A stretch of DNA of 64,000 nucleotides from Cenarchaeum sp. (GTDB lineage: Archaea; Thermoproteota; Nitrososphaeria; Nitrososphaerales; Nitrosopumilaceae), in NCBI GenBank assembly GCA_963692915.1, contig OY843584.1, forward strand, positions 832,001-896,000, given 5' to 3'. The notes under the pieces were generated by a model. That model did no database searches. It was not told where the DNA came from and saw nothing but the letters and a program-made list of their open reading frames with translations. Below are positions 10,098 to 21,314 of this stretch, in pieces; the stretch's first letter is position 1, and each line of letters opens with the position of its first letter. Both the position numbers and the translations under genes were made by a program.

Positions 10098-11078
10098 TCA
10101 CCCAACCCTGCGTATTCTCTCAGAGCGCTGACCGGGAATGTCAATCACGTACCTTCCGGCGCCGAGCTGCTCAAACCACTCATAGAGAACCTGCACGTTT
10201 CCCGTGAGATCCCGCCGGCTAGGAACCGGCACGTCAGTGCAGTTGTCCTGTATCCACTCCTTTACACGTCCAAAATACGTCTCTGGGTCTATGAATGAGT
10301 CCATCTTTTGCACAAACGGGTGCGCAAAGAATCGTGATGCCAGCTGTGCGCGAAACTCTGCCTCTGACAGGCCCCGCTCTATCCCATAGTTTGCCAGGTC
10401 ATGAAACACACAGGCGGCTATCTCGTCGTTATCAGACGGTTCTAGTCCCTGCTCCATCCTAGTGTATCCGGACACGAGGTCATCAACTATTTCAGTCATC
10501 GGCAGTGCCGATATCAGAAACTTGTCCGGCTGTACACTCACAAGCGAGTCAAGCTCATCCTCTGTCTTTGGTGGCTGCGGCTGTTGCTTGACCCATTTAG
10601 AAAGAGTGCCATACATGTCATCGTCCACAAGCCGTGACTCGCAACGTATGCGCTCAAAGTACACACGGTCATCCGGTGACGCCTCTTTTACAAGCACGCC
10701 CATCTCATGGTTGCCGCCCTTGTGCATTCCCCTGTGCGACATGTTTCCCGTGCAGAGCACATAGTGGCGCAGTCCGGCCGAGACCACCTTTAGGTGGATT
10801 TTAGAGTTCACGTAGAGCCTGATGTCCTGCTCCTTGCAGTACGGGTACAGGGACAGCTCGGATGAGCCTGACACGAGATCCCTAGTGTCCCACGTCGTGA
10901 TGATCACCACCTTGGAGTCGATGCCGTCTAGGAGCTCCCTGAGCACGTCTGTCCGGATATAGGGGACGATGATGTGGATCGTCTCGCCGCTGCGCGAGTG
11001 CTCCTCGATATAGGCCCTGACGGGCGCATAGAGGGGGCTCTGAAACGTGGGCTGCTCGTCGGCCAATCCGGCGCGCAC
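10098..11078 (-). CDS. Phospholipase D-family nuclease-like protein (single degenerate HKD)
   Basis: IIVPYI, IHLKVVSAG...TGNMSHRG...NHEMG; the HxK is present but the Asp position is Gly. Confidence 0.75.
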   Translation of the reverse strand: MRAGLADEQPTFQSPLYAPVRAYIEEHSRSGETIHIIVPYIRTDVLRELLDGIDSKVVIITTWDTRDLVSGSSELSLYPYCKEQDIRLYVNSKIHLKVVSAGLRHYVLCTGNMSHRGMHKGGNHEMGVLVKEASPDDRVYFERIRCESRLVDDDMYGTLSKWVKQQPQPPKTEDELDSLVSVQPDKFLISALPMTEIVDDLVSGYTRMEQGLEPSDNDEIAACVFHDLANYGIERGLSEAEFRAQLASRFFAHPFVQKMDSFIDPETYFGRVKEWIQDNCTDVPVPSRRDLTGNVQVLYEWFEQLGAGRYVIDIPGQRSERIRRVG

Positions 11079-11376
11079 GCGCGGGGTTCCCGTATATCAC
11101 TGGGCGGACGGCAGGCGACCCTTTTCCATGGTGTCTGCAGGCGATCAGGCCACATGGCCTGTTTTGCCCCAAATCTGCCCCAATATCCTAGACCATGATG
11201 AGGCGCGTTCCTAGCGGCAGTCCTGAGCGGTTCGACAAGACCTCAAGACAGACCTTCAGGCACGACGCAAGGAAATCAGGTTAAAGAGCACCAGCCGCAG
11301 GTTAACTGTGGCTCAACCCAAATTAATTTAAACTCCCAACACCTCGCCGGGGCATGGCAAGGCCGGAGTTGATCGC

Positions 11377-20800: not shown

Positions 20801-21314
20801 GCTAAAGGCCACGCGCGTAAATGACCGCAAGCGCCTGGCCACCATTGCAGTGTCGCTCTCCGAGAGGGCGACAGGTGCGGATTCCGGAATGCGCGGGTTT
20901 CTGAACGCCATTGCCACCAGTGCCCTTGATGACGATGAGTGGATAGGGTATGTGGCAATGGTCCTGACAGAAAAGCCAGTTGCTGACTGGACTGACGAGA
21001 CTAGAAGGGTGTTTGACACAAACCTCAAAGATCTGGCCAGCAGGTTTCTTCGTCTCATGGCACTAAACTTTGACGAGTCCGCAAGGCACCTTAGCGCATC
21101 ACCGCCACCGTACAGGATCACGGTTACAAACAGGGACGGGACAGAGAGCATTAACGTGGCCATTGCAGGTGGCGGCAAGGACAAGATGGCAGACAGGGTG
21201 GTCGACGAAATGGTCAGCATTATGGACAAAAAGGGCATGGCTCGCCAGGACGTGATCCTGGCACTAATGGCATCACTTAGCAAGAGGCTGCAGGACAAAA
21301 AGTCCAGTGGATAG
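17865..21314 (+). CDS. sspC: Large P-loop ATPase (SspC-like)
   Basis: ITGPYGSGKS Walker A, ILVDEFGKNLE Walker B, EWAKVQGRF, CYPLNP, ERTLVSF; follows DUF4007 with an ATGA overlap. Confidence 0.88.
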   Translation: MRRKRVAKATRPVKSTRSAKSATVRTEPLSRLVTPIESFMRSTNVERDTAGAGSLGTYIANASALDTVQRLADSMAGGGRAFSITGPYGSGKSTLAVFLGGLLGPSSDADWKYAHRLLHGIAPDMARNVTDGRKGLGAHRGGFARCTVVAGKEPISATIIRALDKGARDRFGTRYSARDFATAGQLRRLYGEIRQASGAAAHGASHTGAIMEIVRGMCSRVPVVILVDEFGKNLEYLAEGGAGDGDVFSLQSMAEAGTGPGALPLFVVTMQHMSFEEYGTRMSGAHRREWAKVQGRFEDIPFENSAEQTRLLVSRSLCARGGASGRKAVDSWSAAHMASLTRLGLADGLGNGLLASCYPLNPLALLVLPELCARYGQYERTLVSFVAGAGRDAVPAFIDRSRWSAGALPSMDVESLYDYFVSSHQSAGSASAANVTRLMEITTVIRDSHGLSRAAIKALKTIGVLNLVSTSGSLRASRDVMRYAVGPEAEAALEELEEKSIITHRAYADEYRVWRGTDVDIQAHTEILRAKYADMPLARTLAIVSPLEPMMAARHGIKTGTMRMFGRRFLGDGIDEAASGQDHDGVIMYMTDQFASLPPVSAGALPTIVVRPTVDMEDVRSVALETAAIREMLETDDAIKGDWVARRELWDRMVHGITGIETGLERAYGDDAEWWLVNVGARPRRLDKSGGVAVSAAADIAYPKTPHAHNEMVNRTRLSTQASRARLTLINAMVMRHGEESLGMTGWGPERAMYESVLKRTGMHARSGRSWGIARPRSGLCAAWDLVMSSIARSRRHRVNVSEVYSALKAPPIGAKAGIMPILLVAALLTKRDDVALYEHGTYKPTMAPEVIERLLKNPGHFEIKHLASRTGHKAKAIRGVAAALGANASLLGVIGELVKAASRLPAYTRVTKTMGRHDTAVRDAILRSTEPDVMLFEALPRALGVDLSSSQFGTRLAKSVKALEKFHPDMLDALRAALLKATRVNDRKRLATIAVSLSERATGADSGMRGFLNAIATSALDDDEWIGYVAMVLTEKPVADWTDETRRVFDTNLKDLASRFLRLMALNFDESARHLSASPPPYRITVTNRDGTESINVAIAGGGKDKMADRVVDEMVSIMDKKGMARQDVILALMASLSKRLQDKKSSG

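What the first reader, a model, noticed from the sequence alone, without database searches (positions are those of the whole stretch)
10098..21314. Archaeal Ssp-type DNA phosphorothioation operon with a non-canonical effector set (SF2 helicase + MORC/GHKL ATPase + PLD nuclease)
Seen: one co-oriented, tightly coupled run of PAPS-reductase-like gene, DExH helicase, GHKL ATPase, cysteine desulfurase, DUF4007 and a 1149-aa P-loop ATPase, plus a divergent PLD-family gene. Known: desulfurase + DUF4007 + ATPase + PAPS reductase is the SspABCD single-strand phosphorothioation (PT) machinery. Its described partners are SspE (DUF262/DUF1524) or SspFGH, and the described archaeal PT defence is DndCDEA-PbeABCD. 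Prokaryotic MORC ATPases are associated with R-M-like loci. I recognise no SspE, SspFGH, PglZ, BrxL or DndDE gene in the window. Inference: helicase + MORC ATPase, possibly with the PLD nuclease, form a different PT-coupled antiviral module in an ammonia-oxidising archaeal lineage. I cannot confirm that it is undescribed.
Basis: partly seen in the sequence, partly recalled or inferred. Interest (0 to 1): 0.92.

Follow-up and report, generated by a model that had tools for sequence, protein, structure and literature searches.

The report
DNA sulfur-marking defence with MORC-helicase arm
An ammonia-oxidising archaeon carries a DNA phosphorothioation (Ssp) operon with a foreign-looking helicase and MORC-like ATPase pair wedged into it and a PLD nuclease beside it, a trio that accompanies Ssp genes in many bacteria and archaea and is probably an undescribed DNA-cutting arm of this anti-virus system.

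Summary
Window 10098-21314 holds a divergent PLD gene, then sspD, an SF2 helicase, a MORC-like GHKL ATPase, sspA, sspB and sspC as one tightly packed run.

- Among the 80 best loci encoding relatives of the GHKL protein, the helicase is directly upstream in 73. SspB/C/D lie alongside in 44 of the 48 loci with full flanks. A PLD-family gene is present in 48.
- No bona fide SspE or SspF was found in this genome.
- PADLOC and ten literature searches name no such Ssp partner.

The trio is not specific to archaea. It resembles a split SauUSI/PbeA/MtsD-type PLD-helicase nuclease plus a paraMORC-style ATPase.

New points:
- The helicase-GHKL pair has 38% GC in a 59% GC genome.
- A congener keeps PLD and sspD at 92-95% identity but carries a different helicase/GHKL pair elsewhere in the locus.
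- sspD is frameshifted inside an (AG)12 run, so modification may be off, or the assembly may be wrong at that point.

Function is inferred and untested. Four genomes carry the pair without any detectable SspB. This scan met the same trio before on other DNA. Verdict: new variant of a known kind.

The parts
10098..11078 (-). HKD (PLD-family) nuclease, 326 aa. N-terminal single-HKD nuclease domain plus a C-terminal HTH/winged-helix module. Divergent from sspD.
   Evidence: H95/K97/N112/E125 are invariant in 16 homologs. Model pLDDT 88. Residues 5-162 match SauUSI at Z 16.0, Nuc 13.4 and BfiI 13.1. Residues 182-326 match N.BspD6I at Z 7.2, BrxA 5.8, FokI 5.7, SspB 5.3 and ArsR-type wHTH about 6.5. 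92% identical in the congener.
11377..12138 (+). sspD (PAPS-reductase-like sulfur-transfer enzyme), 253-aa reading frame, truncated by a frameshift
   Evidence: PADLOC SspD 7e-102, matching model positions 1-242 of 277. Ten relatives are 260-279 aa.
12111..12134 (+). (AG)12 dinucleotide repeat at the sspD frameshift
   Evidence: Read. It is the longest dinucleotide repeat in the 1.64 Mb genome. Only 4 have 7 or more units, and the others have 7-8.
12113..12232 (+). Conserved SspD C-terminal tail (…KNLPLVDVL…CTMCHL, then stop), encoded in the +1 frame after the repeat
   Evidence: Three-frame translation and alignment to 10 relatives, all of which end in C-x-x-C-x-x.
12242..13852 (+). SF2 (DEAH) helicase/translocase, 536 aa, with a family-specific N-terminal region of about 135 aa
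   Evidence: ResIII, DEAD and Helicase_C. PADLOC PbeA 2e-27 over the helicase core only. PDB profile hits: RadD 6e-40, SauUSI 5e-19.
13846..15609 (+). MORC-like GHL ATPase, 587 aa: GHKL plus transducer domain (about 1-410) and a helical C-terminal domain of unknown type
   Evidence: HATPase_c_3 1e-19. MORC2 5.7e-9 by profile. Fold: SMCHD1 Z 20.8, MORC3 19.1, MORC2 17.2, MutL 16.8. Model pLDDT 75.6.
15612..16880 (+). sspA, cysteine desulfurase
   Evidence: Aminotran_5 9e-70, PADLOC SspA 8e-128.
16864..17868 (+). sspB (DUF4007), DNA-binding subunit
   Evidence: DUF4007 1.5e-77, PADLOC SspB 1e-87.
17865..21314 (+). sspC, BrxC-like ORC/Cdc6-clade ATPase, 1149 aa
   Evidence: PADLOC SspC 8e-283, BrxC 7e-96.

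Best explanation
This is a phosphorothioate (PT) restriction-modification-like defence locus. SspA, B, C and D are the writer that puts sulfur into the DNA backbone. A conserved three-protein set is the effector: an SF2 helicase-like translocase, a MORC-like GHKL+transducer ATPase, and a single-HKD (PLD) nuclease fused to an HTH/winged-helix DNA-binding module.

The helicase and the PLD protein together look like a split version of the fused PLD-SF2 motor nucleases SauUSI, PbeA and MtsD.

The most likely working model has four steps, all inferred and none shown.
1. The nuclease dimerises to form one HKD active site.
2. The helicase provides ATP-driven translocation.
3. The GHKL ATPase dimerises on ATP as a clamp or switch that licenses cutting.
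4. PT marks made by SspABCD distinguish host DNA from invading DNA.

In this archaeon the helicase-GHKL pair is a compositionally foreign cassette exchanged within the Nitrososphaerota and inserted between sspD and sspA. As assembled, sspD is frameshifted in an (AG)12 run, so the writer may currently be off.
For: Shown:
- Gene identities and intact catalytic motifs.
- Linkage seen from the GHKL side: helicase adjacent in 73 of 80 loci; SspB/C/D present in 62 of 80, and in 44 of 48 with full flanks. A PLD-family ORF is present in 48 of 80. It is directly downstream on the same strand in 41 of those 48. 38 of the 39 directly-downstream PLD-family ORFs found carry HxK…N.
- Linkage seen from the SspB side: 20 of 80 loci carry both genes, against 6 with an SspE-like gene.
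- In the host's own family, the six of 60 relatives that have SspB (G001, G005, G019, G021, G022, G031) are the same genomes that have a GHKL hit. G011 has a GHKL hit without SspB. PLD homologs at 45-92% identity lie in their loci.
- Both the helicase (5e-19) and the PLD protein (6e-4; fold Z 16.0) find SauUSI 7CLG as a top solved relative.
- The MANTIS preprint reports that a BrxC-like ATPase, a modification enzyme and a SauUSI-like PLD-SF2 protein form a working defence (passages read).
- The SspFGH paper reports that 83.9% of sspBCD loci have no known partner (passages read).
- One contig of public run X1 spans GHKL into sspC (14025-21438) with no differences, so that junction is not an assembly chimera.
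Against: - No experiment exists: PT modification, nuclease activity and phage defence are all untested.
- The pair is not always tied to Ssp. Four of the 48 full-flank loci lack SspB/C/D, and those four genomes have no DUF4007 at E<=1e-5 (positive control). In one of them, L091, the pair sits among housekeeping genes; L122 shows the same ORF layout.
- The PLD gene is missing from 32 of 80 loci.
- Between the two congeners the PLD is 92% identical while the helicase and GHKL are only 34% and 29% identical and sit elsewhere. This argues against a tight, specific PLD-helicase-GHKL complex.
- SspB (69%) also diverged while the PLD did not, which argues against the PLD reader recognising SspB's sequence motif.
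- The PLD C-terminal domain has no sequence-level relation to SspB (hhalign probability 0.5%), and the fold matches are middling (Z 5-7).
- As assembled, sspD lacks its conserved Cys-bearing tail. A restriction arm that cuts unmarked DNA should then be self-toxic.
Confidence: 0.62

Rival explanations
1. Standalone paraMORC-type defence module. The helicase, GHKL ATPase and PLD nuclease work independently of phosphorothioation and merely co-reside with Ssp genes because both are mobile defence-island cargo.
For: - Orphan pairs occur in 4 genomes without detectable SspB.
- The pair's GC often departs from that of the neighbouring ssp genes: lower by more than 0.05 in 10 and higher by more than 0.05 in 8 of 49 loci, and -0.23 in the window.
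- The pair is swapped between congeners.
- The 2008 paper describes paraMORC with SF2 helicase and nuclease operons that carry methylases, not PT genes.
- The Dnd reappraisal argues that DndFGH is a standalone system (passages read).
Against: - Linkage in 44 of 48 full-flank loci across many phyla is far above mere co-residence.
- In the window the pair lies inside the operon, between sspD and sspA, with gaps of 9 nt (to the in-frame sspD stop) and 2 nt.
- No methyltransferase was identified among the 9 ORFs scanned in and next to the locus.
Confidence: 0.15
2. Accessory to modification, not restriction. The helicase and GHKL ATPase open or remodel DNA so that SspABCD can write PT, or they tune PT density as DndB does.
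For: - The gene order sspD-helicase-GHKL is conserved: SspD is within 600 nt upstream of the helicase in 22 of 80 loci.
- The pair sits between two writer genes in the window.
- Some loci have the pair without a PLD nuclease (32 of 80).
Against: - Per the SspFGH paper, iscS-sspBCD supplied the protective PT modification in E. coli without any such partner (passages read).
- A catalytically intact HKD nuclease follows directly in 41 loci.
- All the closest characterised relatives of this architecture (SauUSI, PbeA, MtsD) are restriction effectors.
Confidence: 0.1
3. In this particular genome the system is inactive or switched off. The (AG)12 frameshift removes SspD's conserved C-terminal C-x-x-C tail and separates its stop from the helicase start, either as decay or as reversible phase variation. 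This can hold together with any of the readings above.
For: - The frameshift, with the conserved tail intact in the +1 frame.
- The repeat is the longest dinucleotide repeat in the genome.
- One extra AG unit, or two fewer, would restore the frame (arithmetic).
Against: - It may be an assembly error. The contigs of all four public runs break at 12100-12142, so the repeat length could not be checked.
- Every other gene of the locus is intact.
- Whether the truncated SspD still works is unknown.
Confidence: 0.3

Closest known systems
SspABCD-SspE and SspABCD-SspFGH phosphorothioate defence systems (Xiong et al. 2020, recalled and not read; Wang et al. 2021, PMC8092258, passages read)
   Same: The same writer set: SspA, B, C and D all match strongly. 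Like SspE and SspFGH, the extra genes sit beside sspBCD. In 7 of 80 loci the helicase-GHKL pair co-occurs with an SspE-like gene, as SspFGH can.
   Different: The effector proteins are unrelated. The window has no DUF262/DUF1524 protein, and PADLOC gives no SspE/F/G/H hit for the helicase, GHKL or PLD proteins at E<=0.01. The paper describes SspF as a Walker A protein and SspH as FtsK-like.
PbeA of DndCDEA-PbeABCD (HKD nuclease fused to an SF2 helicase, as re-annotated in PMC10853773; passages read)
   Same: Best PADLOC match of the helicase (2e-27). PT-associated. Combines HKD nuclease and SF2 motor chemistry.
   Different: Only the helicase core aligns (model positions 236-627 of 672). Here the nuclease is a separate gene. 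No PbeB/C/D (CxC ABC ATPase, DndE) hits in the locus. A GHKL ATPase is present instead.
SauUSI (PDB 7CLG) and MtsD of the MANTIS system (preprints 10.1101/2022.12.11.519956 and 10.64898/2026.09.23.753747; passages read)
   Same: SauUSI is the top solved relative of the PLD protein and among the top for the helicase. MANTIS pairs a BrxC-like AAA+ protein and a modification enzyme with a PLD-SF2 effector, the same logic as SspC and the writer genes with the helicase and PLD here.
   Different: Split into two genes here. Modification is by sulfur, not methylation. There is an extra MORC-like ATPase. There is no SRA-type domain as in SauUSI, and no methyltransferase.
Prokaryotic MORC/paraMORC restriction-modification operons (Iyer, Abhiman and Aravind 2008, PMC2292703; passages read)
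   Same: A GHKL+S5 ATPase next to an SF2 helicase and a nuclease, HKD included. Laterally mobile. The paper proposes a DNA-looping or clamping role.
   Different: Those operons carry DNA methylases. PAPS, Dnd and phosphorothio- occur 0 times in that text. Which paraMORC family this protein belongs to was not determined.
Mza (MzaB) and DISARM (DrmC) components in PADLOC
   Same: The GHKL N-terminus matches MzaB (1e-13). The PLD matches DrmC weakly (5e-6).
   Different: Only single domains match. No other Mza or DISARM component matched among the 9 ORFs scanned.

Membership tests
SspABCD PT-modification module | SspA cysteine desulfurase, SspB (DUF4007), SspC (BrxC-like ATPase) and SspD (PAPS-reductase-like) encoded together | tested here: met
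   PADLOC E-values: SspA 8e-128, SspB 1e-87, SspC 8e-283, SspD 7e-102. Pfam agrees.
SspABCD PT-modification module | Full-length, intact SspD | tested here: not met
   Frameshift in (AG)12. The 253-aa frame lacks the tail present in 10 of 10 relatives. An assembly error is not excluded.
SspABCD PT-modification module | DNA actually carries phosphorothioate | not testable with these tools
   Needs iodine cleavage or LC-MS/MS of PT dinucleotides.
SspE partner | DUF262 + DUF1524 protein matching the SspE models, beside sspBCD | tested here: not met
   None in the window. Two distant GmrSD_N hits in the genome. The one scored is HEC-06 at 236 bits and SspE at about 60 bits, against 1224 bits for a true SspE, L085. 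The second (C1:1628169) was not scored against PADLOC.
SspFGH partner | SspF homolog in the genome, or an SspF/G/H match to the locus proteins | tested here: not met
   SspF models PDLC02793-95 find no match in the genome. No SspF/G/H among the PADLOC hits of the locus proteins. SspG/H models were not searched genome-wide, because their accessions are unknown to me.
PbeABCD | PbeA with fused HKD nuclease, plus the CxC ABC ATPase PbeC and the DndE-like PbeD | tested here: not met
   Only the helicase core of PbeA aligns. No PbeB/C/D hits among the 9 ORFs scanned.
MORC/paraMORC R-M systems (2008 definition) | GHKL + S5/transducer ATPase | tested here: met
   Residues 1-410 align to SMCHD1 (Z 20.8, 337 residues), MORC3 (19.1), MORC2 (17.2) and MutL (16.8). 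HATPase_c_3.
MORC/paraMORC R-M systems (2008 definition) | Adjacent SF2 helicase and nuclease | tested here: met
   Helicase adjacent in 73 of 80 loci. PLD-family gene in 48 of 80.
MORC/paraMORC R-M systems (2008 definition) | Family-specific motifs (MORC signature; the ExxxH motif of paraMORC2) | tested here: inconclusive
   No conserved ExxxH was evident in the invariant columns of A1. The MORC signature is not given in the passages read.
MORC/paraMORC R-M systems (2008 definition) | DNA methyltransferase as the modification partner | tested here: not met
   No methylase among the ORFs scanned. Ssp genes take that place.
MANTIS / BREX-related systems | BrxC-like AAA+ protein with a PLD-SF2 effector and an N6-adenine methyltransferase | tested here: not met
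   SspC matches BrxC at 7e-96 and the PLD and SF2 functions are present (split), but there is no methyltransferase. DUF3870 was not looked for.

The most novel reading that the evidence does not exclude
The helicase, MORC-like ATPase and HKD nuclease are a widespread, unnamed third class of restriction partner for Ssp phosphorothioation, found in at least several hundred species across bacteria and Nitrososphaerota. In it, a relative of the eukaryotic MORC/SMCHD1 silencing ATPases acts on a DNA-backbone epigenetic mark. In this archaeon the arm behaves as a swappable low-GC cassette on a conserved PLD-sspD scaffold. The (AG)12 run in sspD could be a phase-variation switch that, through the 9-nt spacing to the helicase start, affects writer and effector together.
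Probability: 0.4. Interest if true: 0.75.

Novelty: new variant of a known kind. Interest (0 to 1): 0.62.

Why it matters
By the SspFGH paper's own count, most sspBCD loci (83.9%) have no known restriction partner. This trio would account for a sizeable share of them: 20 of the 80 SspB loci examined here, more than SspE. It would also link prokaryotic MORC-like ATPases, relatives of the eukaryotic chromatin silencers MORC and SMCHD1, to the reading of a backbone sulfur mark rather than base methylation. Intact orthologous loci exist in records of cultured genera (Rhodococcus, Mycobacterium, Nostoc, Streptomyces), so the idea is directly testable. The congener comparison shows how effector cassettes are exchanged on a fixed writer scaffold in a small symbiont-type archaeal genome.

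Tried and rejected
- Complex prediction of the full helicase with GHKL residues 200-587: no verdict, score 0.00. This is neither support nor evidence against.
- Metagenome scan for close relatives of the GHKL protein: best hit only 31% identity, so nothing on the cassette's nearest kin or donor. The 70-93% identical proteins could not be placed on contigs.
- Public reads for the repeat length: contigs of runs X1, X4, X5 and X6 all break at 12100-12142, so the frameshift could not be checked.
- My first impression that the cassette came from bacteria (42-46% identity to Actinomycetota, against 35-39% to same-family archaea) was rejected by the quick tree. That tree puts the window with P0001-P0025 and the four same-family archaeal versions in one clade with 100% SH-aLRT. 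The careful search did not finish, and the root is at the midpoint.
- PLD C-terminal domain as a sequence homolog of SspB: hhalign probability 0.5%. Only fold-level resemblance remains.
- ESM Atlas look-up of the helicase N-terminal 135 residues: best score 0.80, which is chance level. The GHKL C-terminal 415-587 had no convincing fold match. Neither domain was folded alone, so no claim of a new fold is made.
- Guessing PADLOC accession numbers cost several genome searches. SspG and SspH were never reached.
- Recalled DOI 10.1093/nar/gkaa726: not held.
- Literature. Searches found nothing linking Ssp to GHKL/MORC. PMC10853773 and PMC12839542 each contain 0 occurrences of MORC and of GHKL. PMC12914056 contains 0 occurrences of 'helicase'.
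Full report
**1. What is there**

| Gene | Coordinates | Main evidence |
|---|---|---|
| PLD-family gene | 10098-11078 (-) | see section 4 |
| sspD | 11377-12138 (+) | PADLOC 7e-102 |
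| SF2 DEAH helicase | 12242-13852 | ResIII 9e-24 |
| GHKL ATPase | 13846-15609 | HATPase_c_3 1e-19 |
| sspA | 15612-16880 | 8e-128 |
| sspB / DUF4007 | 16864-17868 | 1e-87 |
| sspC | 17865-21314 | 8e-283; also BrxC 7e-96 |

The genes are packed like an operon: helicase and GHKL overlap by 7 nt, there are 2 nt between GHKL and sspA, and sspB and sspC overlap by 4 nt. Catalytic motifs are intact in the helicase (GAGKT, DEAH, QMAGRAMR), the GHKL protein (ELIDNS, DDGCGM, GIGRWGVGL) and the PLD protein (HxK…N). The flanks are housekeeping genes: a histidine kinase at 6314-8452 and homoserine dehydrogenase at 23568-24602. The genome is one 1.64 Mb contig and encodes archaeal AmoA (389 bits), so the host is an ammonia-oxidising archaeon.

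**2.

First, the helicase-GHKL pair is compositionally foreign. It has 38.3% GC in a 59.4% GC genome, and only 0.67% of 8208 same-size windows are as low. The edges are sharp, near 12.2 kb and 15.6 kb. sspD and the PLD gene are intermediate (52-57%) and sspA/B/C are at 58-68%.

Second, sspD is frameshifted. Ten relatives are 260-279 aa and end in a conserved tail (…KNLPLVDVL…ALD(D/E)…C-x-x-C-x-x). The window's frame stops at 253 aa just after an (AG)12 run (12111-12134). The conserved tail is encoded intact in the +1 frame (12113-12229), with its stop at 12230-12232, 9 nt before the helicase ATG. One more AG unit, or two fewer, would restore the frame.

The run is the longest dinucleotide repeat in the genome. 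Only four have 7 or more units, and the others have 7-8. I could not tell a real shift from an assembly error, because the contigs of four public runs from three studies all break at 12100-12142. The other junction is real: one contig of run X1 covers 14025-21438 with no differences.

**3. Is the helicase-GHKL pair really tied to Ssp?**

The GHKL protein belongs to a large full-length family: 2601 proteins at E<=0.001 among the 7999 candidates scored. With an alignment of 14 members, the species-representative genome collection gave 387 relatives, and the best 80 loci were kept.

Counts over those 80 loci (tblastn and profile searches):

| Measure | Count |
|---|---|
| Helicase directly upstream, same strand | 73 of 80 |
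| At least one of SspB/C/D (E<1e-20) | 62 of 80 |
| Same, among loci with at least 8 kb on both sides | 44 of 48 |
| All three of SspB, C and D | 37 of 80 |
| PLD-family ORF anywhere in the locus | 48 of 80 (29 of the 48 full-flank loci) |
| PLD-family ORF directly downstream of GHKL, same strand | 41 |
| HxK…N motif in the directly-downstream PLD-family ORFs | 38 of 39 |

Of the 7 loci without an adjacent helicase, one has only 592 bp upstream and one has a helicase fragment further away. The other five carry something else in its place: a DndB-like gene (two loci), an HNH gene, a second GHKL gene, and a DisA-like gene.

The usual bacterial order is sspA-B-C-D-helicase-GHKL-PLD. The window has the same blocks permuted. 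The loci come from records titled Actinomycetota, Cyanobacteriota, Chloroflexota, Pseudomonadota, Bacteroidota, Acidobacteriota, Armatimonadota, Myxococcota and others.

Of these 80, 20 loci hold both the helicase and the GHKL within 10 kb, 6 hold an SspE-like gene, and 15 hold a PLD-family ORF. The 10-kb flank cuts some loci short, so 20 is a lower bound. The 80 are those nearest the window's SspB, so they are not an unbiased sample.

In the host's own family, SspB was found in 6 of 60 relatives searched (G001, G005, G019, G021, G022, G031). The GHKL query hit the same six, plus G011.

**4. What the three proteins are**

- **Helicase.** The best solved relatives by profile are RadD (6e-40) and SauUSI 7CLG (5e-19). 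The best PADLOC model is PbeA, over its helicase core only.
- **PLD protein.** The model has pLDDT 88. It has an N-terminal single-HKD nuclease domain (SauUSI Z 16.0, rmsd 2.1 over 146 residues; Nuc 13.4; BfiI 13.1). Its C-terminal half (182-326) aligns to the DNA-recognition modules of N.BspD6I (Z 7.2), BrxA (5.8), FokI (5.7) and SspB (5.3), and to ArsR-type winged helices (about 6.5). Those Z values are middling, and profile comparison with SspB finds no sequence relation (probability 0.5%). 'HTH/winged-helix DNA-binding module' is therefore as far as I go.
- **GHKL protein.** The model has pLDDT 75.6. Residues 1-410 form a GHKL-plus-transducer module closest to SMCHD1 (Z 20.8), MORC3 (19.1), MORC2 (17.2), GRP94 (17.1) and MutL (16.8). 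The helical C-terminal 415-587 has no convincing match.

SauUSI is a PLD nuclease fused to an SF2 motor and a target-recognition domain. PbeA is an HKD nuclease fused to an SF2 helicase. MtsD of MANTIS is the same kind of protein, working with a BrxC-like ATPase and a methyltransferase. The window's helicase and PLD protein therefore look like a split motor nuclease, with a MORC-like ATPase added.

**5. Canonical partners elsewhere?**

The genome has one Ssp locus and one helicase and one PLD of this type. There are two GmrSD_N (DUF262) hits far away. The one I scored is HEC-06 (236 bits) and reaches only about 60 bits on SspE models, whereas a true SspE from a Nostoc locus scores 1224 bits. 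Three SspF models found nothing. SspG and SspH were not searched genome-wide.

**6. The congener comparison**

In same-genus genome G001 the locus is syntenic but mosaic.

| Element | Identity to the window, or state in G001 |
|---|---|
| Upstream ORF | 92% |
| PLD | 92% |
| SspD | 95% |
| SspA / SspB / SspC | 68% / 69% / 59% |
| Between PLD and sspD | a low-GC split GmrSD pair that the window lacks |
| After sspC, convergent, low GC | a different pair in the order GHKL-helicase (29% and 34% identity) |

Both genomes thus carry low-GC effector cassettes on a shared PLD-sspD scaffold.

A quick tree puts the window's GHKL with metagenomic proteins P0001-P0025 (one is labelled Thaumarchaeota by its source). 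This group is sister to the four same-family archaeal versions, in one clade with 100% SH-aLRT, apart from all bacterial rows. The careful search did not finish and the root is at the midpoint. The cassette was therefore exchanged within the archaeal group, most of whose loci here are low in GC, and not imported from bacteria as raw identities had suggested to me.

Across the bacterial loci the pair's GC sits between about 0.33 and 0.65 and departs from the ssp genes in both directions.

**7. Evidence against a strict PT link or a tight trio**

- Four of the 48 full-flank loci have no SspB/C/D. Those four genomes have no DUF4007 at E<=1e-5, and the same search finds it in G000 and G001. In L091 the pair sits among rhamnose and copper genes, and L122 shows the same ORF layout.
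- The PLD gene is absent from 32 of 80 loci.
- Between the congeners the PLD stayed at 92% identity while the helicase and GHKL were replaced and SspB diverged.
- If sspD is truly broken, an effector that cuts unmarked DNA should harm the host. This favours an assembly error, a tolerated truncation, an SspE-like PT-stimulated mode, or joint silencing.

**8. Known or new?**

The 2008 paper on MORC/paraMORC ATPases predicted R-M systems built from a GHKL+S5 ATPase, an SF2 helicase and a nuclease, HKD included, with methylases. It has 0 occurrences of PAPS, Dnd or phosphorothio- (passages read). The SspFGH paper reports that 2211 of 2678 sspBCD loci (83.9%) have no known partner and suggests that more partners exist (passages read).

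I found no paper that holds SspBCD with GHKL, DUF4007 with HATPase_c_3 or SspABCD with HATPase. None of the 9 papers holding phosphorothioat- with GHKL concerns Ssp partners, judging by their listing and by passages of one of them. The Dnd reappraisal and the BREX-diversity paper contain neither MORC nor GHKL.

Either could list this neighbourhood.

This scan has met the same trio on other DNA (e1-3405605, e1-1115387, e1-1169156). Those are unchecked AI notes. I re-derived the linkage independently here.

**9. Verdict**

This is a real Ssp locus with a recurrent, catalogue-absent effector set. It is best filed as a new variant of PT-based restriction-modification, built from a known kind of parts (a paraMORC-type ATPase with a split PLD-SF2 nuclease). 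The linkage is shown. The mechanism and the antiviral role are inferred.

Noticed in passing
G000:C1 554801-558568, 702001-706168, 1314001-1319968, 1625401-1629368 (outside the window): Four of the 16 low-GC islands of the genome coincide with the GHKL paralogs of about 620 aa (C1:555282 and 702586) and with the two GmrSD_N genes (C1:1316877 and 1628169). Defence-type genes in this genome tend to sit in low-GC patches.
   Followed up: partly
G000:C1 280081, 1521639, 647452, 1122850, 1124573: Very long homopolymer tracts (G26, G21 and three C19). The first two lie in or beside low-GC islands. They could be contingency tracts or assembly artefacts.
   Followed up: no
G000:C1 1314538-1315656 and 1315887-1317608: A cysteine desulfurase 41% identical to SspA lies next to the HEC-06/GmrSD-type gene, in a low-GC island.
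   Followed up: no
window 21467-22138 and 22252-22884: Two tandem paralogs (66% identical) of an ORF family with no Pfam match, directly after sspC. tblastn finds 15 further matches elsewhere in the genome. The family also flanks the locus in the congener.
   Followed up: no
L214, L220, L224, L289, L062 and others: Many of the nearest bacterial relatives of the window's SspB and GHKL carry record titles of sponge-associated lineages (Poriferisocius, Poriferisodalis, Spongiisociaceae, Poribacteria, Rhodococcus spongiicola). The nearest archaeal records are titled Cenarchaeum and Nitrosopumilaceae. This hints at exchange within one habitat.
   Followed up: no
L141 (G011:C1:1308853-1313457): A same-family genome without SspB has a distant GHKL-like gene (26-28% identity), a helicase-like gene (33%) and an SspA-like desulfurase (38%) side by side.
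   Followed up: no
L156 and L157 (G031): This relative has two sspD copies about 30 kb apart. One is followed by helicase-GHKL with a convergent PLD. The other sits with sspA and sspB, with no SspC hit in the stretch fetched.
   Followed up: no
L085, L093, L101, L105: Four loci carry a bona fide SspE and no PLD-family ORF. In the three Nostocales loci (L085, L093, L101) the SspE lies between sspD and the helicase; L085 scores 1224 bits on the SspE model. In L105 it lies downstream of the GHKL gene. SspE and PLD may be alternative third partners.
   Followed up: partly
window 41243-41258: A (GC)8 repeat, the second-longest dinucleotide repeat in the genome.
   Followed up: no
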